Assembly: GCA_963997635.1 (NCBI GenBank)
Contig: CAXEND010000001.1
Location: 80,005 to 144,004 of the forward strand
Source of the DNA: an uncultured Rhodospirillaceae bacterium
Lineage (GTDB): Bacteria; Pseudomonadota; Alphaproteobacteria; UBA828
Direction: 5' to 3'
DNA: 64,000 bases
A model generated the notes under the pieces. It searched no databases, was not told the DNA's origin, and saw only the letters and a list, made by a program, of their open reading frames with translations. A program made the translations under genes and the position numbers. Shown here in pieces: positions 31,526-57,518 of the stretch. Numbering within the stretch: the first letter of the stretch is position 1; the number at the start of each line of letters is the position of its first letter.

Positions 31526-31625
31526 AAAAAAAAACTCTGACCAAAAGTCAGAGCTTTAAAAAGCATGAGACCTTTTAGCCGTTTATTTTACGTGGCCGCA
31601 AGCCGGTCGACTCAAATCGCCACAA
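31526..31625 (-). promoter_or_regulatory. Candidate SAM-II-type riboswitch with intrinsic-terminator expression platform in the metZ 5' leader
   Basis: Minus-strand leader reads GCGAUUUGAGUCGACCGGCUUGCGGCCACGUAAAAUAAACGGCUAAAAGG, carrying the GAUUU...GGCUUG...GCUAAAA elements of SAM-II-like aptamers. It is followed by hairpin GCUCUGAC-UUUUG-GUCAGAG plus a U9 run, 28 nt before the metZ start. Confidence 0.4.
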
Positions 31626-31697
31626 GTATCATCAAACATTTAAAATGTTGTTGCGTCAAGAGGGTCTTAGCCATTTAAAAATTTATTGATTAATATA

Positions 31698-41558: not shown

Positions 41559-41560
41559 GG

Positions 41561-43069: not shown

Positions 43070-45286
43070 GTGAGTTTTTTACGTCGTGTTTTCCGTAGGT
43101 TTGGTTGGGTGCATCTCATTGCACTTGGCTTATTAGCTGCACTCATTGTTCTTAGAGTAGCAGACCCAGCACCTCTACAACTTCTTAGATCAAAAATATT
43201 TGACTTTTATCAACAGGTTGAACCAAGAGAGCGAAGTAGACAGCCCGTAGCAATAGTAGATATTGATGAGGAAAGTTTAAGGGACGTTGGTCAGTGGCCT
43301 TGGCCAAGGACAACTGTTGCACGGCTTCTTAATAATCTACGCAAATATGGGGCTGCAGGAGTGGCTTTTGACGTAGTGTTTGCTGAGCCAGATCGTACAT
43401 CTCCAAATCTAGTAGCAAAAAATATACGAGGCCTTGGAAAAAAAGCACGCCAAGAGCTGGAACGACTTCCTAGCAATGATGAAACATTTGCGAGGATTAT
43501 CAAGCGGAGTCCAGCAGTACTTGGTCAGGCCACAATAAATAGAAAAATTGTAAAAACAGAGAGAAAATCTTTAAAAGCGACATTTGGCTATAAGCAACCA
43601 AAAGGGGTTCAAGCAAAGAATTTTATGCTTTCGTATCCTGGCATTACTAGAAATTTAGAAATACTTGAGAATGCTACTCCTGGTATTGGAGTATTTACTT
43701 TTAAGCCTGCAGTTGATGGAATTGTTAGGCAAGTACCACTAGTTGTAAGAGTTGATAATCGGGTATATCCGACACTTTCTTTAGAACTCCTAAGAGTAGC
43801 CACAAAACAAAAAACTTTTGTTGTCAAGGCTAATCAGGCAGGGCTTCAATCTGTTGTTGTTGCAGGTCTAGAAATTCCTACTGACCAGAATGGACAAGTA
43901 TGGATGAAATTCGCCAAGCACGATAGAAATTTATATATTCCAGCAAAAGATGTATTAAACAAGACTATTTCAAAGGAACGTATTGCGGGGCATCTTTTAT
44001 TTATTGGAACTTCTGCTGCTGGCCTTCTTGATATTAAAGCAACTCCAGTTGACCCAGCAATTCCTGGTGTAGAGGTTCATGCTCAGCTTCTTCAGAATAT
44101 AATGGATAAAATATATTTGATTCGACCAGGTTGGGCTATTGGTGCTGAGGTTATAGCTTTAGGATTATCCGGATTACTCTTAATTGGCCTTATACCATTT
44201 TTAGGCTCGCTATGGACTTTAATTATTGGATTGACATCTATAATTGGATTAGTAGCGATAACTTGGTGGGCATACCAATCTTCAGGAATGCTCCTAGATT
44301 TAATTTATTCAGCGTTTTCGGTTTTCTTAATATATGTAGTTTTGACATTTTTAAATTACATGAGAGAAGAAAGAGAAAGACGGCAGGTCAAAGGTCAATT
44401 TAGTCATTATTTATCTCCAGATTTAGTAAAGCAGTTAGCTGATGATCCAACTCGATTAACTCTTGGCGGAGAGATGAAAGAAATGACTCTATTATTTGCT
44501 GATATTAGAGGCTTTACAACCATTAGTGAGCAATTTGATGCTGAAGGCTTAACACGCTTTATAAATCGATATTTGACACCTATGACTGAGGTGATATTAC
44601 AACGAAGAGGGACTATAGATAAATATATGGGTGATTGTATAATGGCATTTTGGAACGCCCCCATAGATGATCCTGATCATGCAAAAAATGGGGTTAGATC
44701 AGCACTCGCTATGTTCGAAGAGAGTGATAAGATGAATGAAGTATTGAAAGCTGAAGCAAAAGACGAAGGGAGAAAATATATACCTCTACGCATTGGTGCA
44801 GGACTCAATACGGGTGTCTGCTGTGTAGGTAATATGGGATCTGATATGCGTTTTGATTATTCTGTTTTAGGTGATGACGTTAACCTAGCAGCAAGATTAG
44901 AGGGACAATCAAAGACTTACGGCGTTAATATAGTCATAGGTGAAAAGACCTATAATGCTGTTCAAGATTTTGCTTGTCTTGAGCTTGATCGTATCCAGGT
45001 GAAAGGGAAAACTGTACCTGTCGATATATTTTGTGTCTTAGGAGATGAAAAGAGAGCACAAAGTCCAGAATTTAGAGCTATCAAATCACTTAATGAAAAT
45101 ATGATAACTGCTTATCGAAAACAGCAGTGGAAATTAGCTAATCAAAGAATTGAAGAATTAAAGGAAATTGACAAAAATAAAGAGCTAGAAGTTTTATGTG
45201 AACTTTATGAGCAAAGAATATCTTACTACAAAGAAAATCCGCCCGGCGATAAATGGGACGGATCCTTTATTGCTACTACAAAGTAA
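43070..45286 (+). CDS. CHASE2 sensor-domain adenylate/guanylate cyclase (class III)
   Basis: N-terminal TM, ~300-aa periplasmic domain, three closely spaced TMs, then a class III cyclase domain (LLFADIRGFT ... GDCIMAFW ... GLNTGVCCVGNMGS). Confidence 0.8.
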   Translation: MSFLRRVFRRFGWVHLIALGLLAALIVLRVADPAPLQLLRSKIFDFYQQVEPRERSRQPVAIVDIDEESLRDVGQWPWPRTTVARLLNNLRKYGAAGVAFDVVFAEPDRTSPNLVAKNIRGLGKKARQELERLPSNDETFARIIKRSPAVLGQATINRKIVKTERKSLKATFGYKQPKGVQAKNFMLSYPGITRNLEILENATPGIGVFTFKPAVDGIVRQVPLVVRVDNRVYPTLSLELLRVATKQKTFVVKANQAGLQSVVVAGLEIPTDQNGQVWMKFAKHDRNLYIPAKDVLNKTISKERIAGHLLFIGTSAAGLLDIKATPVDPAIPGVEVHAQLLQNIMDKIYLIRPGWAIGAEVIALGLSGLLLIGLIPFLGSLWTLIIGLTSIIGLVAITWWAYQSSGMLLDLIYSAFSVFLIYVVLTFLNYMREERERRQVKGQFSHYLSPDLVKQLADDPTRLTLGGEMKEMTLLFADIRGFTTISEQFDAEGLTRFINRYLTPMTEVILQRRGTIDKYMGDCIMAFWNAPIDDPDHAKNGVRSALAMFEESDKMNEVLKAEAKDEGRKYIPLRIGAGLNTGVCCVGNMGSDMRFDYSVLGDDVNLAARLEGQSKTYGVNIVIGEKTYNAVQDFACLELDRIQVKGKTVPVDIFCVLGDEKRAQSPEFRAIKSLNENMITAYRKQQWKLANQRIEELKEIDKNKELEVLCELYEQRISYYKENPPGDKWDGSFIATTK

Positions 45287-45354: not shown

Positions 45355-47082
45355 TCACTCGTAGGGCCAAAGTCGAGCAAAGTTTTCATCTTCATTAACA
45401 GAGATTATTTTCTGATTCTGTGTAGATCCAAGAACATTAGAATTATTCTTTTTAGACTTCGCAACAATAGGTTTTATAACCTTGGTTAATCCGCTTTCAT
45501 TTTTTGTAGAGAATAATTGTGATTCTTCAGTCAATATCTGAGTTTTTTGAGAGATGTTAATTTCTTTTATTTTCTTACCTGTATTTTGATGTTTAGCTAA
45601 AGGTAGAGTAACCTTTTGTTTAACAGTAAGTTTTTCATTAGTTGTAGTTTCTTTTATATTAATAGAAGTTTTTGTTTTTGTAGGCTTATCTAAAAGAGAA
45701 ATTTTATTTTTTTTTGGCAAAGATGCTAAATTTGTAGAATTTTCAAGCGTTAAGCGTCCCATCGTAACCATTAGTCGATATACTGCGATGCGTGCATCGT
45801 GTTGAGCAGATACTAAGTTAATTCTGGCGTTAAATAACTCACTTTCTGCACCTAAAACATTTATGACGGTCTCTTTTCCTGCATCGCGTAATTTTTTTCT
45901 AGCTTCAAACACTTCAGCTGCAATGTTTACTGCATTCTGTAATAATGAGACTCTTTCTCTTGCTGTTTTTAGTCCTGACCAGGCTAGACGTGACTCTTCG
46001 GTGATTTTTCTTTTTACAAAATTACCAGAGTCAATTGTTGCCTTATGATTAAATGCAGCTTGTGCAGCTCCTGCACGTGTGGCAAACCCATTAAATATGG
46101 TCCATGAGGCGTTTACTTTTGCTTTATAGTCTCGTCTAGTACCTCGAGTTCCACTCAGGTCATCTTCATAATTCCATTCGCCTGTGACGTCGATAGTTGG
46201 GAAATAGTCTGCCTTTGCTATACGTTTTGCAGCGTTAGCGATTGATGTTTGTGAGCTAGCGCTGAGAATTGCTGGGTTTTCAGATAATGCTATTTCTATT
46301 ACTTCCTCCACTGTTTCAGGTACAAGGCCAAGAGGTGGGGTGGGCATGACTAGATTCTGGGGATATGGTGCGTGACCAAAAACTTGTTCGTAACGGCTTA
46401 TAGAATCTTCAAGTTGCCCTTCAAAAGAAACTCTACGTTCTTTAGCTACTTGAAGTGTAGATTTTGATTGTAATACATCAACTGCAATCCCAGCTCCTCT
46501 TCTTACTCGTTCATCTTCTAATTCTAGCTGAAGTCGAATAGTTTCTTCATTATTGCTAGATAATCTGAATAATTTAAAGTTACGCATTACTTCTAAATAG
46601 ATAGAAATTGCCTCAAAAAGAATTCCTTGTTTACTTGTTTCTGCCGAATGTTGTGCAGCAATCATTCCCGCTTCTGCCGTTTCGTTATTTGCATCATTTC
46701 TGAATCCATTAAAAATTACTTGCGTAACGGTAATTTTTGCATTTCGTGCTTGCCCAGTTGTAAAGGGACTAGTGTTAGGGTCTGTGGCTGATCGTCTTCC
46801 AGGGCTATCTATACGTTCATAGCCAAAGTTTCCTGTTGCTTGGATTGTGGGTAAATATTCTGCCAAGGCAGATTTAATACCTTCTTTTGCAGAAAAAACA
46901 CCTGCTTCTGCAGCTTTAATTTGTGGATGATTCTCGAGGATTCCTGATAACTCCTCCTTAAGTGTTTCGCTGGAAGATGAAGATACTGACACTAAAGTTG
47001 CACTTGCAGTTAGTATGCTGATCCATAAACTTTTATGAATTAAGTTCCTCATTAAGCTTGCTCCAATAGAACTACTCGACAA
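45355..47082 (-). CDS. TolC-family outer-membrane channel protein with ~130-aa low-complexity C-terminal extension
   Basis: Signal peptide; TolC-type duplicated helical/beta repeat architecture (ENHPQIKAAEAGV...YLPTIQATGNFGY); C-terminal K/T/N-rich tail; last gene of the cytochrome operon. Confidence 0.75.
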   Translation of the reverse strand: MSSSSIGASLMRNLIHKSLWISILTASATLVSVSSSSSETLKEELSGILENHPQIKAAEAGVFSAKEGIKSALAEYLPTIQATGNFGYERIDSPGRRSATDPNTSPFTTGQARNAKITVTQVIFNGFRNDANNETAEAGMIAAQHSAETSKQGILFEAISIYLEVMRNFKLFRLSSNNEETIRLQLELEDERVRRGAGIAVDVLQSKSTLQVAKERRVSFEGQLEDSISRYEQVFGHAPYPQNLVMPTPPLGLVPETVEEVIEIALSENPAILSASSQTSIANAAKRIAKADYFPTIDVTGEWNYEDDLSGTRGTRRDYKAKVNASWTIFNGFATRAGAAQAAFNHKATIDSGNFVKRKITEESRLAWSGLKTARERVSLLQNAVNIAAEVFEARKKLRDAGKETVINVLGAESELFNARINLVSAQHDARIAVYRLMVTMGRLTLENSTNLASLPKKNKISLLDKPTKTKTSINIKETTTNEKLTVKQKVTLPLAKHQNTGKKIKEINISQKTQILTEESQLFSTKNESGLTKVIKPIVAKSKKNNSNVLGSTQNQKIISVNEDENFARLWPYE

Positions 47083-47214: not shown

Positions 47215-48495
47215 TTATGCGTCTAGAGTTAAATTACCTTTTGGTATTGCAATACAAGCAAGGCATGAACCCTCCTCTGGTTCAGCTCCCGGTGCATTTA
47301 GATATTCAACTTCACCATCCTTGATTGCTGTTATACAAGTCCCACAATTTCCTGCTCTACAGCCAAAATCTATATCTACATCATTATCTTCAGCAAAATC
47401 AAGTATTGCTCCGGAATCTGGATCCCAATCTAAAGTTTTACCAGATTTGGCAAATGTAAGTTTTAACCCTGCACTAGATATTGAGGCTTCTGTCGCCTCT
47501 TTGTTGGCTTCTGTTTTTGTTTTTTTAACTGTAGCAGGACCAAAAGCTTCAAAGTGAATATGTTTATTCGGCACACCCCACGCTTCTAGGTCAGGCACAA
47601 CGGTATTCATCATCGGTGGTGGGCCACACATATAGAAGTCATAATTACTTGAGGGTAAGACTTTCTTAAAAAGTTCTACAGAAACTCTTTCTGCATAAGC
47701 ATAGTCTTCGCCTTCGGTATCTTCCTCACCTGGTTTGGAGAAGCATATACACATATGAATATTTTCATGCTCTTTTCCAATTTGTTTTAGATGGTTAGCC
47801 ATCACAGCTTCTTTGCTGTTTCTTACTCCATAAAAAAACCAAGTTTCACGTTTTGATCCAGATTCAACAATATCATTTAACATCGAGAGTACTGGTGTTA
47901 ATCCGATACCTCCACCAATGAGAACAACGGGGGTTTGTTTTGTTCTATCAAGAAAAAAATGACCGCCTGGAGCCTTTATATCAAGGATATCACCCTCATT
48001 AATTTTATCATGGAAAAAATTTGATGAAAGGCCTGGTGGAGCATCTGGTTCGTCACGTGGCGGGGGGACACGTTTGATTGAACAGCGGTAGTAGTCTGGG
48101 TGGTTTGGACTGTCTGAAAGCGAGTAACATCTAATAACTTGTTTTTTTTGTTCAGGTATATCAAGTCCAAATGTGAGATATTGACCAGGGTTAAATGGTG
48201 GTAATGGCTTTCCATCATGAGGTGAAAAATAAAATGAGCAAATATCACCACCTTCAGGGATTTTTTTCTTGACCTGGAATTTACGAAATCCGTTCCAAGA
48301 GAGTTCCTCAGACTCTTTCTCGAACTTACGGCGATCCATAATTCTTTCAATTTCTTCACGAAATATTTTATCTTGTAGTGCAGAGCTTTTTGCCAGTAAA
48401 GCTTCACGTCTAAAATTGCCAACACCTGTAAAGAAAAGTGTTGCGGCAAGAATAGCTAGAAAGACTAGAGCGACAATATGAATAGCAGTTTCCAT
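47215..48495 (-). CDS. Membrane-anchored oxidoreductase: FNR-like flavin/NAD(P)-binding domains plus C-terminal plant-type 2Fe-2S ferredoxin domain
   Basis: N-terminal TM helix; flavin motif RCYSLSD; NAD(P) motif GGGIGLTPVLSML; C-terminal CRAGNCGTC...C cluster motif. Confidence 0.75.
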   Translation of the reverse strand: METAIHIVALVFLAILAATLFFTGVGNFRREALLAKSSALQDKIFREEIERIMDRRKFEKESEELSWNGFRKFQVKKKIPEGGDICSFYFSPHDGKPLPPFNPGQYLTFGLDIPEQKKQVIRCYSLSDSPNHPDYYRCSIKRVPPPRDEPDAPPGLSSNFFHDKINEGDILDIKAPGGHFFLDRTKQTPVVLIGGGIGLTPVLSMLNDIVESGSKRETWFFYGVRNSKEAVMANHLKQIGKEHENIHMCICFSKPGEEDTEGEDYAYAERVSVELFKKVLPSSNYDFYMCGPPPMMNTVVPDLEAWGVPNKHIHFEAFGPATVKKTKTEANKEATEASISSAGLKLTFAKSGKTLDWDPDSGAILDFAEDNDVDIDFGCRAGNCGTCITAIKDGEVEYLNAPGAEPEEGSCLACIAIPKGNLTLDA

Positions 48496-48566: not shown

Positions 48567-50108
48567 TTAAAATTTGCGGCGTATTTCAAAGCGTGCTCCG
48601 GAAATGTTTTGCTCCTCTGTTCTCCATCCGTGCATTGCATCAGCTCTAAATAACCAAGCTTCATTGATATTTTGCTGGTAGCGTAAACCCAAGGCATATT
48701 CATCTCCGCGAAGGCTCCTACCTACCTCATTTTCTCCTTCAATGACTTGGTTTGTAGCTGCTTCAATGACGATTTGACGATCTAAATTGAAGAGATAACT
48801 AACTCCTATAGCTCCACCAAATGCATTCTGTCCGGTATCATTGAGTTTAGGAAATCCTGTTAACCCATCTGTTTCAAAGTTAATACCAGTATTCTTTAAT
48901 AATCCATCTGCTCTAGCTGCTGATTGAGGCCTGTCAATGCCTACAAAAAAGTTACCATAAGGGACCAGTGTTGAGGGTAGACTTGTAATCAGGGAGTTCT
49001 CAACTAATAAAATTAAACCATCAGCCGTATCTTGCAAGTTATTGTCTCTATCTTGTCCAAAAGACCATATTGCTCTTATGCTATTAGAAAGCAATGCTCC
49101 GTATCTTTTTGTATATGCAATTGTAGCACTATTATATGACTCGTCGTCGAATCCACCTTCTCCATCTAATCTAGCAAAACCAGCTTCCCAGTATGCTTCC
49201 ATAGCTTCTACAAATGTAGCTACTCCAAAGATATTGACGTTATGATCAGCATTTGCATTTTGATCATCTTTGAAAGCTTGATTTGTAACTTTGTCAAAGC
49301 CATAGAAAAAAGATATATCCATATTGGTTATGTCCAATAATGGACTGTTGAGTGAGGGAATAGCAGTTGCTACACCTGTGAAAGCATCCTCAATCCATAT
49401 CCCATTTTGGAATAAGAGTGGCATAAGGCCTAATGAAAAGGGAACGTCAAGACTGGAGTATTCACCGCTAAAGCCAGCGTAAAGTGCACCTGCATCTCCT
49501 TCAAAAAATAGTGCATCTAAATTTCCATCGATTTGTGCATCACATTTCTTATTGGGGTCATTATTTGGTGCATCGTCACCAAAAAACTCGCAACGGCTAA
49601 ACTCACCTTGTCCATCAAGTGGCCTTAAAATAGCATGGATTCTCTCAGTTCCAGTGAATTTATAATCAATATCTAAATTAAGCCTAGTAGCAACCTGTCC
49701 TACCTCAACATTTCCATTGTCATTAAAAGCCAGTGCACTACGCCAATCTCCATAAACATATAGCTCTGTGAAAGTAGGGTTCAACTCTCCAAGAGCATCA
49801 CCTCCTTCAACTAATGGTCCACCAGAATAAAGAGGATTTCCAATCTCTAATAGAGGTCTTGTGACAGGATAGGCTGATTTGCCACCATAAATTTGAAGTT
49901 GGGCTTCAATATCATACTCTTCTTCTGGGTAACTTGGATCAGCTCTAAATACACCTGCGTCATGTTCGACAATTTTTGAGCGTGTATCTTTTTTGATCTC
50001 GGCACCATTGGCAAGATTTTGTTCTGCAGCAAATGAAAATGTTAAACTTGCGGCAATACAAAATGGCAATAAATGGTATCCAGGAAAGTTTTGAATGATT
50101 TTTTTCAC
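48567..50108 (-). CDS. Putative outer-membrane beta-barrel protein (porin-like)
   Basis: Signal peptide; C-terminal Phe (…ARFEIRRKF); alternating hydrophobic beta-strand pattern. Sits between multiheme cytochrome genes and an oxidoreductase, 7 nt downstream of the pentaheme gene. Confidence 0.5.
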   Translation of the reverse strand: MKKIIQNFPGYHLLPFCIAASLTFSFAAEQNLANGAEIKKDTRSKIVEHDAGVFRADPSYPEEEYDIEAQLQIYGGKSAYPVTRPLLEIGNPLYSGGPLVEGGDALGELNPTFTELYVYGDWRSALAFNDNGNVEVGQVATRLNLDIDYKFTGTERIHAILRPLDGQGEFSRCEFFGDDAPNNDPNKKCDAQIDGNLDALFFEGDAGALYAGFSGEYSSLDVPFSLGLMPLLFQNGIWIEDAFTGVATAIPSLNSPLLDITNMDISFFYGFDKVTNQAFKDDQNANADHNVNIFGVATFVEAMEAYWEAGFARLDGEGGFDDESYNSATIAYTKRYGALLSNSIRAIWSFGQDRDNNLQDTADGLILLVENSLITSLPSTLVPYGNFFVGIDRPQSAARADGLLKNTGINFETDGLTGFPKLNDTGQNAFGGAIGVSYLFNLDRQIVIEAATNQVIEGENEVGRSLRGDEYALGLRYQQNINEAWLFRADAMHGWRTEEQNISGARFEIRRKF

Positions 50109-50115
50109 GGCTCTT

Positions 50116-51957
50116 CTATCCTTTTACTTCAAATTCAACCGTGTAGGCGTCAATGTCTAGCATCCATTCGTTCATTGCACGCTCCATTTCTTTTGTGGCG
50201 CCAACAAACCTCATGAAATAGATTGGCTCAGCTCTACTTCTCATCCTGATAGCCAATTTATATGTGCCTGGTTGTTTTATGAGCTTTCCTGGAACTGAGT
50301 AATCAGCATCACGGCTAGATAATGGGGGAAGACTTCGCCCCTCCATTCGAACAAAGGGTGGGTGATTTATAACGGTTGTAGGCTGTGATGCTGGCCGTAG
50401 GAATGGAAGCTGGTCTACATCAAAGTTTACCGGCAAATACATCTCACGATCTGTCCCTTTTACGTTTGTAGTTAAGAATTTAGTCTGTAAATTAACTAAT
50501 TGGTCATCATATGGGACCTTTCCAGATAAAACGTCTGCACTATGAAGGTCTGCCATATCTCCTGCAGAGTCGGTATATCCAGATTCCCAAATATTTGTTC
50601 CATCAGGTCCTATCAGTGCAACATTAACCCAGAGTTCTGGCTGAGCACCAAGAGAGCCTGAAGGTAGATTATGTCCCGAATTAGTGTTTGAAATTGTGTA
50701 AGTGAAGTCGAGATCATGGCCAATTTGAGGGTTGTCATCAAAGAATGGCCCATCGATGTGGGAACCATTTTCCATGACTTGTCTCCTCAATTCGCGTTTT
50801 TCTTCTATAAGCCCAATGTTATAGTTTATAATTTCCCTAGCTTCTTCCCTGTCAAAACGATCTTCCCAGACTTCTGGAAATTCTATTTCTTCTATTTCTC
50901 CAGAATCAACTAATTCTTCATAATTATCTTCCCAATCTTCTTCTCCCCATGGAGCTCGATAGTTAAACTGAAGCCATTCTTCCATGGTCCAGTTTTCAGC
51001 GTCTGGGTTATGAGGGAAAATACCAGGGTGTGCAATAGGGTATCCTGGACCTGCAAAGGCATGACTATGTCTAATCCTGTCAGGATTTACAGCACGCCCA
51101 TCTACAACCGCAGCTGGACCAGTTTTGAAATGACCTGCAACCCCAGGTTTGTAACTCATATGGCAGTCTTGACATGACACACCTTGAGCATGGGCAGGCG
51201 AATCACGATACTGATCCCAAACTACTTCAAGCTTAATTCCTAAATTAACAGCAACCTGATGACATGAAACGCAAAATTCTGATTGATTGAGCTGTGTAAA
51301 AATTTTGCCTTCATTATGAATTTGATTTCCGCGCTCATCAGAATTAGTGGCAACTTTCCAAGTGCTAGCATTCTCGACCACTTCTTTAATCCCATCGCCT
51401 CCTAAGACGCCGTATACAGGTTCAAATATTTCCCCCATCACAATATTTCTGGAACCATTTGCTTTTCCATATGCTGTATTTACGCGGTGGCAGGTAATAC
51501 AAGTAATACCTTCCCGGCTAACTTGTTTACGTTCCCACATAGGGAGTTCCCTAGCTTCGCCCATTTGTGTGCTTACTGTTGCATGGCAGCGAACACAGAA
51601 TGTATTTATTGTGGGAGCAAGTGAGTTAATTGCATTTTCAAATTTATGAAACATTGGAGAAAGTGAGGCGTAGGCATGGTTTGATGAAGCCCATTCTCTG
51701 TAGATATCCTCATGGCATGATTTACATTTTGATGCACTGGGAAATAAATCTTCATTCAAAATATCTGTGTGCATTTTATCGGCATCAATTGTTTCATTGT
51801 CACTTGCTTCTAAATCTCCAGAAACTGATGAGAATGCAAATAGTCCAATGAGACATAAAAAGACTGAAATTTTAGTTAAGGTTTTTTTCATCATAATTGT
51901 AGTTTTCTCATGATCAGAGAAAATACTGTTTTTAAATAATATACTTAACTTAGTCAT
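50116..51957 (-). CDS. Secreted pentaheme cytochrome c with large heme-free acidic C-terminal domain
   Basis: Five CxxCH motifs (CKSCH, CVRCH, CITCH, CVSCH, CQDCH) within the first ~265 residues, then ~350 residues with none. Alternative start at 51894 (MMKKTL..., classic signal peptide) would remove the 8-nt overlap with the decaheme gene. Confidence 0.8.
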   Translation of the reverse strand: MTKLSILFKNSIFSDHEKTTIMMKKTLTKISVFLCLIGLFAFSSVSGDLEASDNETIDADKMHTDILNEDLFPSASKCKSCHEDIYREWASSNHAYASLSPMFHKFENAINSLAPTINTFCVRCHATVSTQMGEARELPMWERKQVSREGITCITCHRVNTAYGKANGSRNIVMGEIFEPVYGVLGGDGIKEVVENASTWKVATNSDERGNQIHNEGKIFTQLNQSEFCVSCHQVAVNLGIKLEVVWDQYRDSPAHAQGVSCQDCHMSYKPGVAGHFKTGPAAVVDGRAVNPDRIRHSHAFAGPGYPIAHPGIFPHNPDAENWTMEEWLQFNYRAPWGEEDWEDNYEELVDSGEIEEIEFPEVWEDRFDREEAREIINYNIGLIEEKRELRRQVMENGSHIDGPFFDDNPQIGHDLDFTYTISNTNSGHNLPSGSLGAQPELWVNVALIGPDGTNIWESGYTDSAGDMADLHSADVLSGKVPYDDQLVNLQTKFLTTNVKGTDREMYLPVNFDVDQLPFLRPASQPTTVINHPPFVRMEGRSLPPLSSRDADYSVPGKLIKQPGTYKLAIRMRSRAEPIYFMRFVGATKEMERAMNEWMLDIDAYTVEFEVKG

Positions 51958-53923
51958 TATTAGTTACTCTCAGATTAAATCCTGTTTCATTATGATAGAG
52001 GTGGCATAACTGACAATCTTGCCTTACTTGTCCTTCATTATGACACTGAGTGCATGTTTCTTTATCTATCGAATCAAAGTTACTCTCAAATATATGCGGG
52101 TTGTTATCACTAAATGAAGCACCATAGTTAGCTTGGACATTTAATTTGTGGCAAGTTTGGCAGCCCGCTTCTGGATCAGCCAAATTTATACCACTTGGAT
52201 TGAGTATGTTTAAATGGGCTCCATGTGAATAAAACGTATGTGGTCTACTCTTTGAATTATTAAAGTTCCACTGTACATGTAAAGGGTTTGTTTCAGTTTC
52301 TGAAACAGAATGACACTTCGTACAGGCTCCAAAACCTTCCTTAGGATTAAGTAATTCGTCCCTCATAAACTCCCCAGACTCTTCAACATCCTCATCATCA
52401 TCAAGCACACTTAGAGCACCAAAGTTAATCCAAGCACGGACTACCGGATCTCCATGTCCAATAGGTTTATATTTTAACTCAACACCTTCTGCGTACCAAC
52501 CCCCATAATTTGGGTCAGAAGGTGACTCATATTCTTCATTAGATGCCCAAGCACATGCCACCTCTCTAGTAAGTGTTGGGCTCAGACCAGAGAGCATCTT
52601 TTTTGCGCCTTCGGCTCCAACTACTTCGGCAATTGTTTCCTCAAGAACTTCAGAGCCGTCTTCTAATAGACCTACAATCAAAGTCTGCAGTGGCTCTGTG
52701 TATTCAGAAGAGTCATCAATTGGTGTTCTAAGCAGATATGAACTGATAGCTGCTGGTTCGTCAAAAGAAACTGGTTCATATTCTTCTTCATCACCTATTA
52801 AAATTTCTTCATCAAGCATGTCTAATTCTTCTGCTTCAATTGCTTCACGCACTGTTGCTATATTATCTTGTATTTCTTCCCAAGCTTCAAGTGTGGGGCC
52901 ACAAGTTTCAGATACAAAATCTAAGTCAATAAAATTATCATCAAATTCAGGAAGCCTAAGTAATACTAGTTCACGACGAGGAATTGCATCATTATGGCAA
53001 CTTGCACATGCAGTTTGATATCCGACCGGCTTTACAGATTGCACGGCATCACTTACTTCATGACATGAAGTGCAGTTTGTTGGGGCAATATCTTCTAGTC
53101 TTTGATCTTTAAAATGTTGAGTTATATGGCTTGAATGATCAAAGCGTATTGCCGTACGTTGATCATGTGGAAAATCATCCGCAAAGTTTGGATGATTATT
53201 TGCAAAAGAAGAAATTTCTCTTTCATGGCAAGTATTACATTTTGCATCAGAAATAGCAGTTATATCAAAATCTTCTCCTTTGTGTTCAGAATGGCATGCA
53301 ATACAACTAAAATTATTGCTATGGGTGTTGGTCTTATTTGCATTGGAAGAAATATTGTGGGCCAGAAATGGTTCACCTACAAATGTGTGGCAATTTAAAC
53401 AATTTTTTGAAATATTGTTCTCTTCGAATGCAGCAAGAAACCATTCTCCAGCATCCTTTGCATGGGGTTCGTGGCAGGCAACACAACCGCTAGAGGAGGT
53501 AAAATTTGCGTGGCCGTCTGTTAATGGGCCAGCAGATGAAATTACATTATGTCCAGATCCATCACTTCCAAGGGTTAACATCAGGGCAATAACAGATATT
53601 ACAATTGCAAATGCACTTATAGCCATTAAACCTCTTAGGCTTCTAATACTTCTGCGTGGGCGACACGGTGGCTGATGTTGAGAGCATTTACCATCTGATC
53701 CAGGGCCATTGTCACATGGGCCTCCAAATAGTGTAGATCGCCTACATTCAAAGCGATCACCAACTTGTGCTGGTTGGCATTCATAGATACCACCACATTT
53801 GCCACTATTATCAGGGCCAAATTCACAAGGCTTCCCCCATTCAGCTGCTCTCCCACAACGAAATTTACGATTGGGTCGTTCGTAGCGGCTGATGTCATGC
53901 CTGAATTTATTTGGATCCATCAT
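51950..53923 (-). CDS. Membrane-anchored decaheme cytochrome c with cytoplasmic duplicated 4-Cys N-terminal module
   Basis: Ten CxxCH motifs (CVACH, CLNCH, CIACH, CNTCH, CTSCH, CASCH, CTKCH, CQTCH, CTQCH, CQLCH). Single TM helix preceded by an Arg-rich stretch. Start taken as ATG 53923, forming an ATGA overlap with the upstream stop, rather than the ORF-track start at 54007. Confidence 0.8.
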   Translation of the reverse strand: MMDPNKFRHDISRYERPNRKFRCGRAAEWGKPCEFGPDNSGKCGGIYECQPAQVGDRFECRRSTLFGGPCDNGPGSDGKCSQHQPPCRPRRSIRSLRGLMAISAFAIVISVIALMLTLGSDGSGHNVISSAGPLTDGHANFTSSSGCVACHEPHAKDAGEWFLAAFEENNISKNCLNCHTFVGEPFLAHNISSNANKTNTHSNNFSCIACHSEHKGEDFDITAISDAKCNTCHEREISSFANNHPNFADDFPHDQRTAIRFDHSSHITQHFKDQRLEDIAPTNCTSCHEVSDAVQSVKPVGYQTACASCHNDAIPRRELVLLRLPEFDDNFIDLDFVSETCGPTLEAWEEIQDNIATVREAIEAEELDMLDEEILIGDEEEYEPVSFDEPAAISSYLLRTPIDDSSEYTEPLQTLIVGLLEDGSEVLEETIAEVVGAEGAKKMLSGLSPTLTREVACAWASNEEYESPSDPNYGGWYAEGVELKYKPIGHGDPVVRAWINFGALSVLDDDEDVEESGEFMRDELLNPKEGFGACTKCHSVSETETNPLHVQWNFNNSKSRPHTFYSHGAHLNILNPSGINLADPEAGCQTCHKLNVQANYGASFSDNNPHIFESNFDSIDKETCTQCHNEGQVRQDCQLCHLYHNETGFNLRVTNND

Positions 53924-54735
53924 AATGCATACACATTTACGACTATTACGTGCCAAAAAATCAGTGCTAATACTGCAGCTGCTAATGGCACATGAGCTAG
54001 AAGCCAATATTTCATCATCGATTGACAGGCAAAATGAAAATCAATTTTCGATTTATATTTAGCAAGGTCGTTGAGATTATTTAGATATTCACGCTCAGCT
54101 TCGCTTAAATAACGTGACACTGTCTGGTAACTTTGGTTTATCCAATGTTCTGCTGCTGCACCGCCAAGAGTATGGCTAAGGAAAAACCTTGGACGCTGAA
54201 AATACCAGCGTAGTGATTCCATATAATGCCGAGCAAGAGTGTCACTACCTGTATTTTCTGTACAGGCAATTGTTATAGATTCTGATTTTTCTCTTAACTC
54301 TGAAAGTTCTGCTGGTATACGTTCATAAATAATTTCTAATTCAGTCTGAACAAGGCGTTTAGGGTATATTTTTTGTATAATGTATCCAAAAATTCCACTG
54401 ATGGTAACTAGATAAAATACTATCGCAAGTGCTTGTTCATATGCACCAGTTGGCCATACATTTCCTGTGTGAATGAAAAACAGACCCAGAGCTGCTATAC
54501 CGCCAACCACGTGAACTGCAAGCCAATAAGCAGATCTTCCAAAGGGAACCATAGATAGTTTTTTTCGTGCATTAAAAGTAGCTAGCCCTAGCATTAAACC
54601 AAAAAGCACATATCCTGTTATAAATTCTGGCTGACCAAGATTAATATTTGAAATTGAAGAGTATGTAGCAAAGGCAGCAATAAAAGCTGCACTAAATACC
54701 CACAGAATAATATAACGTGTGGTTACAGCATTCAT
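53920..54735 (-). CDS. Integral membrane protein, putative di-heme cytochrome b (NarI/DsrM-like)
   Basis: About 5 TM helices. Two TM segments each carry a His pair 13-14 residues apart (HVVGGIAALGLFFIH; HVPLAAAVLALIFWH), as in bis-heme b proteins. Start and stop are translationally coupled to both flanking genes. Confidence 0.5.
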   Translation of the reverse strand: MNAVTTRYIILWVFSAAFIAAFATYSSISNINLGQPEFITGYVLFGLMLGLATFNARKKLSMVPFGRSAYWLAVHVVGGIAALGLFFIHTGNVWPTGAYEQALAIVFYLVTISGIFGYIIQKIYPKRLVQTELEIIYERIPAELSELREKSESITIACTENTGSDTLARHYMESLRWYFQRPRFFLSHTLGGAAAEHWINQSYQTVSRYLSEAEREYLNNLNDLAKYKSKIDFHFACQSMMKYWLLAHVPLAAAVLALIFWHVIVVNVYAL

Positions 54736-56405
54736 ACCTTAACCCCTGTAAAGGTCTCCTCACCCTGAAAGTTAACACGCCTAAGTGCATCATGCGGGCA
54801 TGCTCTTACACATGCTGGTCCACCTGGGTTGTTTGAACACAGGTCACATTTTGTAGCCTTGCTGATAGGCTTTTGTGTGCCTGGATCCCTGAGTGGTTGA
54901 CCCTTTAAATCTCGAATTTCAACTAATCTTATATTATTGTATGGACAAGAATTTGCGCATGTCCCACAGCCTATACATGTATCATCATTAATTACTACTG
55001 CCCCAGAATCTAGAGAACGATGGATTGCCCCTGTCGGGCATCCAATCATGCAAACTGGATCTTCGCAATGCATGCATGCGTTTGTAACCATCCAATTATC
55101 AAATGTTCTACCATGCCTTATAAACCTTGGATTTCCACCATGTGTAGAGGCACAGGCTCTAACACAATCGTCGCAGCGAACACAACGCTCAAGGTCAATA
55201 AGCATTGCCATAGTACCATTAATAAAGCGTTGATCCAGTGCCCATTCCATTGGGGCATCTGCTTCCATTGATTTTGATAAAGATGGTGTTAACAGTGGTT
55301 TAGGGTTATCCTTAATTTTTGGGAAAACATATTTTTCTATAATAGGTGCGGGAACTCTGAGTATATCTACGTAACCAAGAGCAGAAAGAGAAGTTTGAAG
55401 TGATTGTTCCCCAGTAGTTTTATTGGCCCATAATTCATCAAAGCCAAAATAATCTCCTGCTCCTAGATACGTTAGTGTGCGTTGTCCCGTCCCCATTTTT
55501 ATTGATACTCTTGCAAAACCAGCTCGAACCATTAGTAGACCATCCGGATAATTACCTTGTTTAGCTATAATTGGTTCTTCAGCAGATTTTCCTTGTTCAC
55601 GCATACGTTTATATGAAACGTTCCAATCAAAACTACCAAAAGTTTCAAAAAGTGTTGAGTTAGCTACTTCCTCCAATTCTTCTGGTTCTAGATCAGAAAA
55701 TAAAGGTGTTTCCTTCAAGTGAACTTTTAATGCATTTTCTCTGTAGCGTTCATCAATTTTACGGCGCCATTCAGTGTCATATTTTCTGATCTCTCTCAGA
55801 CCTTGCCACCTAATCTCTAGAAGTTCAGCGTCATTTTCAGCAAAAATACTGGCAGTTCTTGGCACACGTCCTAGAGCTGCTAATTCTCCAAAAAGTGCAC
55901 CAGATTCAAGTTCTGCTGTTTGATGGCTATTTAGAACAGCGGGAATATCTTGAATAAAAACATGCGATGATGTCAGATCCCCAGAGTCTGGATCACGGAG
56001 TGCTTGTGATCCATAACGTGAAGTATCTCGTAATTCTGGTTCTGATGAATTTGTCCAGAGCTGGCTTAGTGCCTCAATAAAATTACGTTTTTTAGTAGAC
56101 TCTCTGCCTATCATTGAGCGAGGTAGACTTGGGTTTATAACCACCCTCACTTTCCCGCTAATTACAAGGAACGCTGAGTTCCCATAGTCTCCTTCTCGAA
56201 CTACTATATCTCCTGATTTGTATTTCATAATTCTGGTATCGTTTTCTAAGATACCAGAAAGTGGGGTATGCTTTGGAAAACTTTCAGAGTCTATCGCTCT
56301 AAATTCTGGTAAATTTAGAAGTTTTTCAACTTCTGTTTCAGTCATTTCGGGGCCAAAAGGTGCTTCCCATCGCTGCGGGCGTGCCATCATTGCAACTGTA
56401 GACAA
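54732..56405 (-). CDS. Cytoplasmic protein with two cyclic-nucleotide-binding domains fused to a four-cluster [4Fe-4S] ferredoxin module (DmsB/NrfC-like)
   Basis: Two cNMP-binding-like segments (…GDIVVREGDYGNSAFLVISGKVRV…; …GLLMVRAGFARVS…GAGDYFGFDEL…). Four cluster motifs (CVRCDDCVRAC; CMHCEDPVCMIGCP; CIGCGTCANSCP; CDLCSNNPGGPACVRACP). No signal or TAT peptide. Confidence 0.8.
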   Translation of the reverse strand: MSTVAMMARPQRWEAPFGPEMTETEVEKLLNLPEFRAIDSESFPKHTPLSGILENDTRIMKYKSGDIVVREGDYGNSAFLVISGKVRVVINPSLPRSMIGRESTKKRNFIEALSQLWTNSSEPELRDTSRYGSQALRDPDSGDLTSSHVFIQDIPAVLNSHQTAELESGALFGELAALGRVPRTASIFAENDAELLEIRWQGLREIRKYDTEWRRKIDERYRENALKVHLKETPLFSDLEPEELEEVANSTLFETFGSFDWNVSYKRMREQGKSAEEPIIAKQGNYPDGLLMVRAGFARVSIKMGTGQRTLTYLGAGDYFGFDELWANKTTGEQSLQTSLSALGYVDILRVPAPIIEKYVFPKIKDNPKPLLTPSLSKSMEADAPMEWALDQRFINGTMAMLIDLERCVRCDDCVRACASTHGGNPRFIRHGRTFDNWMVTNACMHCEDPVCMIGCPTGAIHRSLDSGAVVINDDTCIGCGTCANSCPYNNIRLVEIRDLKGQPLRDPGTQKPISKATKCDLCSNNPGGPACVRACPHDALRRVNFQGEETFTGVKV

Positions 56406-56582: not shown

Positions 56583-57518
56583 TTATTTAAACTCGGTAGG
56601 AAGTAAGCCTCCGACAGTTCCAGATAGATCCTGATCTTTTATAGCTGCAGTTAATGCTACTGCATTTTCTCTGTTTGGGTTTTCTATTAATGTTTTCGCT
56701 GCATCAACTCCAGAAAGAGCTGCTCGAGCGGCTTCGGCACGGGCTTGTTGGAATTCAATAAATTTAGGAGAACCAGACCTACTTATTGCTATTGTAGCCG
56801 ATACAAGCTTAGCAGCTTGTCCTACTACAAATGCACGGCTCATTTCGGCAGGTGTCATTTCGGCATTTTTTGTCATATCTGGCGGATAAAAACGATGTCT
56901 TATACTACCTTGGCTATATTTGACGTATTCCCAGTCAGGTTTAGCGGGATGACCATTTTCTAGCATTATAGCTAATTTTTCTGGATCTATGTTTGCATTT
57001 GCAAGTCCATGACACTCATTACAGTTTTCTGCTATTCCATAGCGGTCAAAAGACCATCGCATTCCAGCAGCCGTTGCTGCAACAATTCTTTCATCCTTCG
57101 GCTCTGCTCTATTATTATGAATTGTAAACCAATCAGACGATGCCCCGTGACAGCTTTCGCAGGACGGGCCAGCTTTTGGTTTTGCTTTTGCGGCGGATGC
57201 TGCGTCTTTGGCTACCAAGGTATAGTGGCATTGAACACATGTTTCATTCTTTTTCATGCTTTTATTACCAGTAGCCTTTGCGAGTGCTTTTGCTAACTTA
57301 CTTTTATGGACTTTTTTAAAGGATTTTGCGTGTTTGGTTTCTTCCCAAATCTGAAACTCAGCTTTGTGGCATTCAGCACACTTTTTGGGTCCTTGGTTAA
57401 ATGGCTCTGCCATAGATTGTCCAGATAAAATTACAGCTCCACCAAGTATTAAAAACATACCAGCTATTGCTGCGACTATTATTTTATTTTGCAATGAGAA
57501 CATCTTTGCCTTCCCCAA
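56583..57518 (-). CDS. Membrane-anchored tetraheme cytochrome c
   Basis: N-terminal signal-anchor; four CxxCH motifs (CAECH, CVQCH, CESCH, CNECH); Ala/Lys-rich C-terminal region; first gene of the operon. Confidence 0.75.
   Translation of the reverse strand: MGKAKMFSLQNKIIVAAIAGMFLILGGAVILSGQSMAEPFNQGPKKCAECHKAEFQIWEETKHAKSFKKVHKSKLAKALAKATGNKSMKKNETCVQCHYTLVAKDAASAAKAKPKAGPSCESCHGASSDWFTIHNNRAEPKDERIVAATAAGMRWSFDRYGIAENCNECHGLANANIDPEKLAIMLENGHPAKPDWEYVKYSQGSIRHRFYPPDMTKNAEMTPAEMSRAFVVGQAAKLVSATIAISRSGSPKFIEFQQARAEAARAALSGVDAAKTLIENPNRENAVALTAAIKDQDLSGTVGGLLPTEFK

What the first reader, a model, noticed from the sequence alone, without database searches (positions are those of the whole stretch)
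48567..50108. Outer-membrane beta-barrel as candidate porin partner of the multiheme cytochromes
A 513-aa protein with a signal peptide, a C-terminal aromatic residue (…RRKF) and amphipathic beta-strand periodicity is embedded between the pentaheme gene and the reductase gene. This parallels MtrB/PioB/OmbB porin components of porin-cytochrome complexes, although it is shorter than MtrB-type barrels.
Basis: inference. Interest (0 to 1): 0.55.

Follow-up and report, generated by a model that had tools for sequence, protein, structure and literature searches.

The report
PtdB outer-membrane barrel beside pentaheme cytochrome
The gene encodes an 18-stranded outer-membrane barrel that always sits next to a five-heme cytochrome gene in a conserved gene cluster of marine bacteria; a 2023 preprint already named it PtdB and called it a putative porin-cytochrome partner, but nobody has tested what it does.

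Summary
A 513-aa ORF lies at 48567-50108 (-), with a signal peptide, an invariant C-terminal RRKF and a confidently predicted beta-barrel. It sits between a pentaheme gene and an FNR/2Fe-2S reductase gene.

The cluster matches, gene for gene and heme for heme (5/4/10), the ptdABCDEFG operon of bioRxiv 10.1101/2023.11.21.568154, where this protein is the "porin" PtdB.

New here:
- The pentaheme gene is directly upstream in 74 of 74 related loci. That includes a second cluster type with a replaced NAD(P)H module, and loci where only the A-B pair remains.
- PtdB is unusually conserved for an outer-membrane protein. Extracellular loop L7 is nearly invariant, and a 67-residue periplasmic N-terminal extension is also conserved.

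Most likely PtdB is the outer-membrane partner of PtdA at the end of an NAD(P)H-fed chain across the cell envelope. The barrel is too narrow for an MtrA-style threaded cytochrome. A plain substrate channel feeding PtdA remains a serious rival.

The parts
48567..50108 (-). ptdB: 513-aa outer-membrane 18-stranded beta-barrel (the finding)
50025..50108 (-). Signal peptide of PtdB (aa 1-28), signal-peptidase-I type
   Evidence: Read from the sequence. Helix 13-32 in the model with low pLDDT. This region is variable across homologs, mean conservation 0.28.
49776..49976 (-). Conserved periplasmic N-terminal extension of PtdB (aa 45-111); candidate docking surface or plug
   Evidence: Mean conservation 0.65 with many invariant residues (F54, P58, Y60, Y65, Q70, I73, Y74, G75, K77, P85, Y94, G97), yet pLDDT is only 50-65. 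Distant homologs carry LysM/FimV_N or NTF2-like domains N-terminal to it, which places this end in the periplasm.
48825..48932 (-). Extracellular loop L7 of PtdB (aa 393-428), the most conserved element of the protein (NTGINFETDGLTGFPKLDDTG motif)
   Evidence: Mean conservation 0.86 over 36 residues, against 0.44-0.58 for loops L2, L5 and L9. That it folds into the lumen, as L3/L7 do in OccD channels, is inferred and not seen directly.
50116..51957 (-). [quoted passage not shown]
50323..50508 (-). Nearly invariant segment of PtdA (aa 484-545) that stays unstructured in the monomer model; candidate interface
   Evidence: Invariant columns are dense across aa 484-545. pLDDT is below 50 for aa 491-541. 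An interface role is inferred.
51950..53923 (-). ptdG: decaheme cytochrome with a Cys-rich cytoplasmic N-terminus and one membrane anchor. The likely start is the ATG at 53923, which overlaps the ptdF stop as ATGA.
   Evidence: 10 CxxCH motifs. The ORF and the hydrophobic segment GLMAISAFAIVISVIALMLTLG. The L001 ortholog is 659 aa and overlaps ptdF by 4 nt.
53920..54735 (-). ptdF: 271-aa integral membrane protein with two His pairs 14 residues apart (H75/H89, H248/H262); candidate di-heme-b carrier of electrons across the inner membrane
   Evidence: Read from the sequence. No Pfam hit. The variant-2 counterpart is 23% identical (E 9e-10) and has His pairs at similar spacing in the corresponding hydrophobic segments. 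The preprint calls it ferric-reductase-like.
54732..56405 (-). ptdE: cyclic-nucleotide-binding domains plus a multi-cluster 4Fe-4S ferredoxin module
   Evidence: Pfam cNMP_binding 2.6e-23; Fer4_11/Fer4_7. DmsB/HybA-like hits below the family cut-offs.
56583..57518 (-). ptdD: 311-aa tetraheme cytochrome, c554-like
   Evidence: 4 CxxCH motifs. Cytochrome_C554 4.8e-16.
47215..48495 (-). ptdC: membrane-anchored FAD/NAD(P)H oxidoreductase with a C-terminal 2Fe-2S ferredoxin domain
   Evidence: NAD_binding_1 5e-20, Fer2 2.6e-13, FAD_binding_6. Match to the reductase part of flavohemoprotein, 1e-77 but below the cut-off.
45355..47082 (-). TolC-family outer-membrane protein directly downstream; linked to the cluster only in the closest relatives
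   Evidence: TIGR01844 1.2e-70, above the cut-off. Present downstream of ptdC in about 16 of 80 loci.
43070..45286 (+). CHASE2-sensor adenylate/guanylate cyclase, convergent neighbour; possible source of the nucleotide sensed by PtdE
   Evidence: The L001 ortholog carries CHASE2 + Guanylate_cyc. Conserved next to the cluster in about a dozen related loci. The regulatory link is inferred.

Best explanation
The ORF is PtdB, the outer-membrane component of the ptd (penta/tetra/deca-heme) gene cluster. It is an 18-stranded beta-barrel, exported by Sec and inserted by BAM, and it works as the dedicated partner of the periplasmic pentaheme cytochrome PtdA.

Together they form the outer end of a chain that carries electrons from cytoplasmic NAD(P)H out across the cell envelope:
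1. PtdC (FAD and 2Fe-2S) and PtdE (4Fe-4S, gated by a cyclic nucleotide) on the cytoplasmic side.
2. PtdF, a membrane protein with two His pairs for two b-hemes, across the inner membrane.
3. PtdG, a membrane-anchored decaheme cytochrome.
4. PtdD, a tetraheme cytochrome.
5. PtdA docked on PtdB.

An 18-strand barrel has a backbone diameter of about 3.3 nm and probably has loop L7 folded inside. So the most likely mode is not a cytochrome threaded through the barrel as in MtrAB. More likely it resembles Cyc2, but with cytochrome and barrel as separate proteins. PtdA would dock on the periplasmic mouth, using the conserved N-terminal extension of PtdB and the invariant unstructured segment of PtdA. 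It would then exchange electrons with a small or chelated external substrate that enters the channel.

Shown: barrel fold, strand number, gene linkage, conservation pattern, cofactor motifs. Inferred: the physical complex, the direction of electron flow, the docking geometry and the substrate.
For: - Barrel fold with 18 strands. All top structural neighbours are 18-strand outer-membrane channels.
- ptdA lies directly upstream in 74/74 loci. In the window the gap is 7 nt, with the ribosome-binding site inside ptdA.
- The A-B pair persists in a second cluster type in 8 loci. There PtdC is replaced by a Pyr_redox domain fused to the cNMP/4Fe-4S protein, the decaheme carries an FHA domain instead of the Cys-rich N-terminus, and the heme counts 4/5/10 are kept.
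- The pair also persists alone in Geminicoccaceae-type loci.
- PtdB is about as conserved as the non-cytochrome redox proteins PtdE and PtdC: mean pairwise distance 0.43, against 0.42 and 0.44.
- Lumen-facing residues are more conserved than lipid-facing ones (0.81 vs 0.70), and L7 scores 0.86.
- PtdB's strongest partial correlation of distance matrices is with PtdA (0.47). The other strong links (E-F 0.59, D-G 0.46, C-G 0.39, C-E 0.34, A-D 0.25) trace the proposed chain.
- PtdA has ordinary signal peptides and no lipobox, so it is periplasmic like MtrA/PioA rather than a surface lipoprotein like MtrC.
- There are six invariant non-motif His in the heme domain for five hemes, which is compatible with all-hexacoordinate electron-transfer hemes.
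- The preprint reached the same porin-cytochrome reading independently and reports high ptdAB transcription in an oxygen-deficient zone.
Against: - No complex has been modelled or measured.
- The closest folds are substrate-specific diffusion or export channels, not cytochrome sheaths.
- Eighteen strands with an in-folded loop leave little room for a heme domain.
- PtdA's closest solved relative, T. tepidum c552, was solved as a standalone chain; from my own recollection it is a soluble protein of unknown function.
- Operon adjacency is also typical of channel-plus-periplasmic-enzyme pairs.
- The distance-matrix correlations are confounded by shared ancestry and by gene adjacency.
- The PtdA model is of low confidence (pLDDT 64.5).
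- The position of L7 inside the lumen could not be checked, because the tools do not return coordinates.
Confidence: 0.5

Rival explanations
1. PtdB is a substrate-specific diffusion channel of the OccD/OprD, AlgE or LamB type. It admits a small soluble substrate, such as an oxyanion, a metal chelate or a redox shuttle, into the periplasm, where PtdA reduces it as a free enzyme. No electrons cross the outer membrane and no stable complex forms.
For: - The lumen-facing positions are rich in conserved Arg (14 Arg + 2 Lys against 15 Asp/Glu), like the charged ladders of specific channels.
- A long conserved L7 is how Occ channels build their constriction (established knowledge; the conservation is).
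- PtdA resembles the T. tepidum c552, which was solved as a standalone chain.
- According to the preprint, PtdA falls in the same COG as NrfA.
Against: - No sequence membership in any channel family.
- The conserved 67-residue periplasmic extension, and the matching invariant but unstructured segment in PtdA, are not needed for a passive channel.
- PtdA has enough invariant His for five bis-His hemes, so no obvious open catalytic heme.
- The conservation is far above what diffusion channels usually show.
Confidence: 0.3
2. PtdB is a true MtrB/PioB-type sheath. The heme domain of PtdA is threaded through the barrel and forms an insulated wire that reaches the cell surface.
For: - The gene order, cytochrome then barrel, matches mtrA-mtrB, pioA-pioB and mtoA-mtoB (established knowledge; the order here is).
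- Strict adjacency.
- PtdA gives sub-threshold hits to DmsE/MtrA-family decaheme models.
Against: - 18 strands against 26 in MtrB. By standard barrel geometry the backbone diameter is about 33 Å against about 47 Å.
- No PF11854 match.
- PtdA is a 613-aa two-domain globular protein with five hemes, not a slim decaheme rod.
Confidence: 0.07
3. PtdB is an export or anchoring barrel, like AlgE or Wzi. It would either secrete or tether a polymer, or translocate and hold PtdA on the cell surface.
Against: No polysaccharide-synthesis genes are conserved near the pair. In L062 a glycosyltransferase lies nearby, but it is not conserved. No known precedent for a folded heme protein passing through an 18-strand barrel.
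Confidence: 0.05
4. PtdB is a general porin, and its position next to the cytochrome gene has no functional meaning.
For: None beyond the generic barrel fold.
Against: 74/74 adjacency across Alpha- and Gammaproteobacteria and MAGs labelled Verrucomicrobiota, and across three different genomic contexts. Translational coupling.
Confidence: 0.02

Closest known systems
PtdB of the ptdABCDEFG operon (Elbon et al., bioRxiv 10.1101/2023.11.21.568154)
   Same: Same seven gene products and same local order (D-E-F-G-A-B-C on one strand). Same heme counts: penta (PtdA), tetra (PtdD), deca (PtdG). Same flanking FAD/NAD(P) oxidoreductase, cNMP/4Fe-4S protein and membrane protein. The preprint likewise calls the protein between the pentaheme gene and the oxidoreductase a porin.
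   Different: Nothing essential; this is an ortholog. The preprint gives no strand number, fold class, conservation analysis or variant clusters. It calls PtdG periplasmic, whereas here it has a membrane anchor and a cytoplasmic Cys-rich N-terminus. It also says all carriers come from saline habitats, whereas the loci here include MAGs from Lake Baikal, other lakes and groundwater.
MtrAB / PioAB / MtoAB porin-cytochrome complexes (MtrB_PioB, PF11854; structure 6R2Q)
   Same: The cytochrome gene is immediately upstream of an outer-membrane barrel gene. The cytochrome is a Sec-exported, non-lipoprotein multiheme protein. The cluster context includes further periplasmic and inner-membrane multiheme cytochromes.
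Cyc2 fused cytochrome-porin of iron oxidisers
   Same: A small barrel (16 strands predicted in the literature) that cannot sheath a multiheme wire. The heme sits at or in the periplasmic side of the channel and reacts with a soluble substrate entering the pore. This is the mechanistic model favoured here.
   Different: In Cyc2 the monoheme domain is fused to the barrel. PtdB has no CxxCH motif, and none of 10 long homologs inspected carries a cytochrome fusion. The partner is a separate pentaheme protein, and the presumed direction of flow is outward rather than inward.
OccD/OprD-family channels, AlgE and Campylobacter MOMP (18-strand outer-membrane channels)
   Different: 8-12% identity and no Pfam match to OprD, Alginate_exp or LamB. 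There is an extra conserved 67-residue periplasmic N-terminal extension. Strict linkage to a cytochrome gene. Far higher conservation across orders.
Fre-MsrQ(YedZ) and NOX/FRE ferric-reductase-type transmembrane electron transfer (for the inner-membrane part of the chain)
   Same: A cytoplasmic NAD(P)H flavoprotein feeds a membrane protein whose paired His residues in transmembrane helices can hold two stacked b-hemes, delivering electrons to the periplasmic side.
   Different: PtdF gives no Pfam Ferric_reduct match. An extra cNMP-binding 4Fe-4S protein is interposed. The acceptor is a chain of multiheme cytochromes. This resemblance rests on sequence motifs and the preprint's annotation and was not tested structurally here.

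Membership tests
Outer-membrane beta-barrel protein (Sec/BAM substrate) | N-terminal signal peptide, C-terminal aromatic residue, and an even number of antiparallel amphipathic strands closing a barrel | tested here: met
PtdB of the ptd operon (bioRxiv 10.1101/2023.11.21.568154) | Encoded between the pentaheme+beta-sandwich gene (ptdA) and the FAD/NAD(P) oxidoreductase gene (ptdC), with ptdD (tetraheme), ptdE (cNMP + 4Fe-4S), ptdF (membrane) and ptdG (decaheme) in the cluster | tested here: met
   Gene order and domains. Heme counts 5/4/10. PtdA beta-sandwich. The same layout in most of 80 related loci.
PtdB of the ptd operon (bioRxiv 10.1101/2023.11.21.568154) | Direct sequence similarity to the PtdB proteins listed in the preprint's Tables S7/S8 | not tested
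   The supplementary tables were not opened. Indirect support only: an ETNP oxygen-deficient-zone alphaproteobacterial MAG locus (L018) carries a 56%-identical ortholog in a full cluster.
MtrB/PioB porin family (Pfam PF11854) | Significant match to the MtrB_PioB profile | tested here: not met
   No Pfam family at E<=0.1 for the window protein. None of the 41 family members hits PF11854 even at E<=10.
MtrB/PioB porin family (Pfam PF11854) | Large barrel (26 strands in MtrB, 6R2Q) wide enough to sheath a decaheme cytochrome | tested here: not met
MtrB/PioB porin family (Pfam PF11854) | The partner gene immediately upstream encodes an MtrA/PioA/DmsE-type decaheme cytochrome | tested here: not met
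   The upstream protein has 5 CxxCH motifs. It scores 33.9 bits against a 192.2-bit cut-off for the DmsE family. Its best structural match is the pentaheme c552, 5ze8.
OprD/Occ channel family (Pfam PF03573) and AlgE (PF13372) | Sequence-profile match to the family | tested here: not met
   No hit. 8-12% identity in the structural alignments.
OprD/Occ channel family (Pfam PF03573) and AlgE (PF13372) | Monomeric 18-strand barrel with inward-folded loops (L3/L7) forming a narrow specific pore | tested here: inconclusive
Cyc2-type fused cytochrome-porin | A heme-binding CxxCH motif in the same polypeptide as the barrel | tested here: not met
   0 CxxCH motifs in PtdB. The N-terminal extensions of 10 long homologs contain no CxxCH.
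Porin-cytochrome complex (functional class) | Physical complex of barrel and cytochrome that passes electrons across the outer membrane | not testable with these tools
Only indirect support is available: 74/74 adjacency, the A-B distance-matrix partial correlation of 0.47, and conserved low-confidence segments in both proteins.

The most novel reading that the evidence does not exclude
PtdA-PtdB is a structurally new class of porin-cytochrome module: a small 18-strand barrel with a docked pentaheme protein, working like Cyc2 but as two separate chains. It would end a non-respiratory electron-export chain that is fed by NAD(P)H, gated by a cyclic nucleotide and bypasses the quinone pool. Pelagic marine and lake bacteria would use it for something other than energy conservation, for example reductive release of iron from colloids and organic ligands, or extracellular superoxide production.
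Probability: 0.2. Interest if true: 0.8.

Novelty: already known. Interest (0 to 1): 0.4.

Why it matters
The ptd cluster is very widespread. There are thousands of PtdA and PtdB homologs in ocean, lake and groundwater metagenomes, and ptdAB is reported as highly transcribed in the largest oxygen-deficient zone. Its function is nevertheless entirely unknown.

If PtdAB really moves electrons across the outer membrane, extracellular electron transfer would be a common trait of free-living planktonic heterotrophs, not a speciality of sediment metal reducers. That would bear on marine iron and manganese redox cycling and on reactive-oxygen production.

The results here narrow the experiments. The core unit to express and purify is the PtdA-PtdB pair. 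The barrel is too small for the Mtr paradigm. The electron input looks like NAD(P)H rather than quinol.

For this scan, however, the finding repeats an interpretation that is already published.

Tried and rejected
- **Family scans.** Pfam and NCBIfam scans of the protein, and Pfam scans of all 41 aligned homologs, gave no family. There were only near-noise hits to YfaZ and OMP_b-brl in 3 of 41.
- **Sequence search of the PDB.** Nothing meaningful; the best hit was E 0.29.
- **Fold search against the AlphaFold database (afdb50).** The library was not available.
- **Natural cytochrome-barrel fusions.** Many distant homologs are 600-1255 aa. The 10 inspected have Pro/Gln/Ser-rich low-complexity regions, or LysM/FimV_N or NTF2-like N-terminal domains, and no CxxCH motif. 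So there is no Cyc2-like fusion among them.
- **Co-folding PtdA with PtdB.** Not attempted.
- **Residue covariation to place L7.** Not attempted. L7 is almost invariant, so it carries no covariation signal, and only about 350 sequences were in hand.
- **Lumen diameter.** It could not be measured because model coordinates are not returned. Only the textbook estimate from strand number was used.
- **"A-B only" loci.** Most loci that looked A-B only in the first synteny pass turned out to carry a divergent second version of the whole system. Only the Geminicoccaceae-type loci truly have the pair alone within ±10 kb.
- **Distance-matrix correlation.** It gave a pattern that fits the proposed chain. 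I treat it as suggestive only, because shared ancestry and gene adjacency inflate such correlations and no significance test was run.
Full report
**1.

The minus strand carries a 513-aa ORF at 48567-50108 with a GTG start. Its N-terminus (MKK..., hydrophobic core...SFAA|EQ) reads as a signal-peptidase-I signal peptide. It ends in ...EIRRKF. In an alignment of 41 homologs K512 and F513 are invariant and R510/R511 nearly so.

The gene starts 7 nt after the stop of a 613-aa gene with five CxxCH motifs, and an AAGGA ribosome-binding site lies inside the end of that gene. It is followed by a 426-aa FAD/NAD-binding plus 2Fe-2S reductase gene. The protein is not a chance ORF. It has more than 2,576 homologs at 50-89% identity, all unnamed and without Pfam domains. 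A profile search of 1.84 billion representatives finds 827 clusters.

**2. What the protein is**

AlphaFold2 on the 41-sequence alignment gives mean pLDDT 78.5 and pTM 0.72, with antiparallel strands over aa 112-512. Reading the strand list back from the C-terminal Phe gives 18 strands with both termini on the periplasmic side. Each strand alternates a hydrophobic face with a polar face.

- Sequence identity in these alignments is 8-12%.
- Neither the window protein nor any of the 41 homologs matches MtrB_PioB, OprD, Alginate_exp, LamB or any other Pfam or NCBIfam family. A sequence search of the PDB finds nothing.

So it is an outer-membrane barrel of the 18-strand architectural class and forms a sequence family of its own. 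Standard barrel geometry (my calculation from strand number, not a measurement) gives a backbone diameter of about 33 Å, against about 47 Å for a 26-strand barrel.

**3. Conservation pattern**

The protein is unusually conserved for an outer-membrane protein.

- Across 36 loci that carry all seven cluster proteins, its mean pairwise distance is 0.43. That is the same as the non-cytochrome redox proteins PtdE (0.42) and PtdC (0.44), and much lower than the decaheme PtdG (0.60).
- By element, the most conserved part is the 36-residue extracellular loop L7 (aa 393-428, mean 0.86, motif NTGINFETDGLTGFPKLDDTG). Loops L2, L5 and L9 are variable at 0.44-0.58.
- Lumen-facing strand positions are more conserved than lipid-facing ones (0.81 vs 0.70) and are rich in Arg.
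- A 67-residue segment before the first strand (aa 45-111) is conserved at 0.65 with many invariant residues, yet it is modelled with low confidence.
- Distant homologs add LysM/FimV_N, NTF2-like or Pro/Gln-rich regions N-terminal to it. This fits a periplasmic location for that end.

I infer that L7 folds into the lumen, as L3/L7 do in Occ channels, and that the N-terminal extension is a docking surface or plug. Neither could be checked, because coordinates are not returned.

**4. The surroundings**

The seven genes on the minus strand are:

| Gene | Size | Features |
|---|---|---|
| ptdD | 311 aa | Tetraheme, c554-like |
| ptdE | 557 aa | Cyclic-nucleotide-binding domains plus a 4Fe-4S module |
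| ptdF | 271 aa | Membrane protein |
| ptdG | 685-aa ORF | Decaheme |
| ptdA | 613 aa | Pentaheme |
| ptdB | 513 aa | The barrel |
| ptdC | 426 aa | FAD/NAD + 2Fe-2S reductase |

This is exactly the ptdABCDEFG operon described in bioRxiv 10.1101/2023.11.21.568154. That preprint names PtdA (pentaheme with C-terminal beta-sandwich), PtdB (porin), PtdC (FAD/NAD(P) oxidoreductase), PtdD (tetraheme), PtdE (cNMP domain with 4Fe-4S clusters), PtdF (ferric-reductase-like membrane protein) and PtdG (decaheme). [quoted passage not shown] No other paper in the library uses the name.

**5. Linkage to the cytochrome**

A scan of one genome per species returned 80 loci.

- ptdA is directly upstream of ptdB on the same strand in all 74 loci that have more than 600 nt of upstream sequence. 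Most of them carry the full D-E-F-G-A-B-C set.
- Eight loci (L032, L039, L052, L063, L064, L066, L070, L072) carry a second version of the system. It has a tetraheme c554-like gene, a pentaheme PtdA and PtdB on one strand. Divergently it has a decaheme with an N-terminal FHA domain, a PtdF-like membrane protein (23% identity, E 9e-10), and one 812-aa protein that fuses a pyridine-nucleotide-disulfide-oxidoreductase domain to the cNMP and 4Fe-4S domains. The NAD(P)H-oxidising module has thus been replaced by a non-orthologous one while the heme counts 4/5/10 and the A-B pair are kept.
- In Geminicoccaceae-type loci (L061, L062, L069, L076, L079) the A-B pair stands alone within the ±10 kb fetched. 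The neighbours examined in L062 are unrelated genes.

The A-B pair is therefore the conserved core.

In a comparison of pairwise distance matrices, PtdB's largest partial correlation is with PtdA (0.47). The other large values (E-F 0.59, D-G 0.46, C-G 0.39, C-E 0.34, A-D 0.25) link the proteins in the order expected for an electron path, and not simply in gene order. This is suggestive only.

**6. The partner**

PtdA homologs have ordinary signal peptides and no lipobox. PtdA is thus a periplasmic protein like MtrA or PioA, not a surface lipoprotein like MtrC.

The heme domain has six invariant His outside the CxxCH motifs, enough for five bis-His hemes. A nearly invariant stretch (aa 484-545) is unstructured in the monomer model. 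Together with the conserved, low-confidence N-terminal extension of PtdB, this suggests an intermolecular interface. That is inference.

**7. How it most likely works**

Cofactor motifs indicate this chain:
1. NAD(P)H passes electrons to the FAD and 2Fe-2S of PtdC.
2. They pass to the 4Fe-4S clusters of PtdE, which carries cNMP-binding domains.
3. PtdF carries them across the inner membrane. It has His pairs H75/H89 and H248/H262, 14 residues apart in hydrophobic helices, with His pairs at similar spacing in the variant-2 protein.
4. PtdG takes over. It is a decaheme with one membrane anchor and a cytoplasmic Cys-rich N-terminus.
5. The electrons then pass through PtdD and PtdA to PtdB.

The input module resembles Fre-MsrQ or NOX-type transmembrane electron transfer (established knowledge) rather than a quinol dehydrogenase. 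Outward flow from NAD(P)H would not conserve energy.

The barrel is small and probably constricted, so I favour a Cyc2-like arrangement with separate chains. PtdA would dock at the periplasmic mouth, and a small or chelated external acceptor would enter the channel.

I put about 0.5 on the electron-conduit partner reading. I put 0.3 on the rival that PtdB is simply a specific diffusion channel supplying a substrate to a free periplasmic PtdA. I put 0.07 on a true Mtr-style threaded sheath, and little on export/anchoring or on a meaningless adjacency.

**8. Comparison and verdict**

- Membership in the Ptd family is met on every feature tested. Direct sequence comparison with the preprint's own PtdB entries was not made.
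- Membership in the MtrB/PioB family fails on profile match, strand number and partner type.
- Membership in Occ/AlgE families fails on sequence and is inconclusive on pore architecture.
- A Cyc2-type fusion is excluded.

The finding is real and correctly located, and its interpretation is reasonable but already published in silico. It needs correcting in one respect: the barrel belongs to the 18-strand channel class, not to the Mtr class.

Additions from this work:
- the fold class;
- the 74/74 linkage;
- the second cluster type with a swapped NAD(P)H module;
- the minimal A-B unit;
- the unusual conservation of L7 and the N-terminal extension;
- the membrane anchoring of PtdG;
- occurrence in freshwater and groundwater MAGs.

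Interest is moderate (0.4). The system is widespread and unexplained, but the finding itself is not new.

Noticed in passing
window 43070-45286 (+): A 738-aa CHASE2-sensor adenylate/guanylate cyclase lies two genes beyond ptdC, past the TolC-family gene, in convergent orientation. It is conserved in that position in about a dozen related loci. PtdE carries cyclic-nucleotide-binding domains, so this cyclase may control the chain.
   Followed up: partly
window 45355-47082 (-): A TolC-family outer-membrane protein (TIGR01844, above the cut-off) with a long low-complexity C-terminal tail lies directly downstream of ptdC on the same strand. It is linked to the cluster only in the closer relatives (about 16 of 80 loci).
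   Followed up: partly
window 51950-54007 (-), N-terminal ~150 aa: The decaheme PtdG has a Cys-rich N-terminal segment (about eight Cys) followed by one hydrophobic membrane anchor. It is therefore anchored in the inner membrane with a cytoplasmic domain, not simply periplasmic as the preprint states. The true start is probably the ATG at 53923, which overlaps the ptdF stop (ATGA). In the second cluster type this N-terminus is replaced by an FHA domain.
   Followed up: partly
L039 6187-16587 (also L032, L052, L063, L064, L066, L070, L072): A second architecture of the ptd system. The separate PtdC reductase is absent, and an 812-aa protein fuses a Pyr_redox FAD/NAD domain to the cNMP and 4Fe-4S domains. 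The heme counts 4/5/10 and the PtdA-PtdB pair are retained. In L039 and L032 a CHAT-domain protein lies next to it.
   Followed up: yes
L062 7813-11431 and L079 7786-11410: In Geminicoccaceae-type MAGs the PtdA-PtdB pair occurs alone within ±10 kb. In L062 the neighbours are CO/xanthine-dehydrogenase-like subunits, a membrane transporter and an FAD-linked oxidase.
   Followed up: partly
window 53920-54735 (-): PtdF has two His pairs, each 14 residues apart within hydrophobic helices (H75/H89 and H248/H262). This is the classic signature of two stacked b-hemes. It has no Pfam match.
   Followed up: partly
P0241, P0244, P0251, P0323, P0344 (distant PtdB homologs): Many distant homologs are 600-1255 aa, with the barrel at the C-terminus. 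Their N-terminal additions are LysM + FimV_N, Cds6_C NTF2-like domains, or very long Pro/Gln/Ser-rich low-complexity regions. None contains a heme motif.
   Followed up: yes
L013, L077 (Lake Baikal); L011, L038, L046, L065 (lake water-column MAGs); L024, L048 (groundwater): ptd clusters occur in freshwater-lake and groundwater MAGs. The preprint describes the carriers it shows as coming from saline environments.
   Followed up: no
window 50323-50508 (-) (PtdA aa 484-545): A nearly invariant 60-residue stretch of PtdA is predicted without structure in the monomer model (pLDDT about 28-36 for aa 491-540). It may fold only in a complex.
   Followed up: no
window 31555-31633 (-): An alphaproteobacterial SAM riboswitch (RF00521, 59.3 bits) suggests the window comes from an alphaproteobacterium. 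The closest genome locus (L002) is nevertheless labelled Gammaproteobacteria.
   Followed up: no
window 39955-42649 (+): Three genes look like a molybdate-type ABC importer: a periplasmic binding protein, a permease, and an ATPase with a C-terminal TOBE-like region. They lie near the cluster, and L001 has syntenic genes with PBP_like_2 and ABC_tran + TOBE domains.
   Followed up: no
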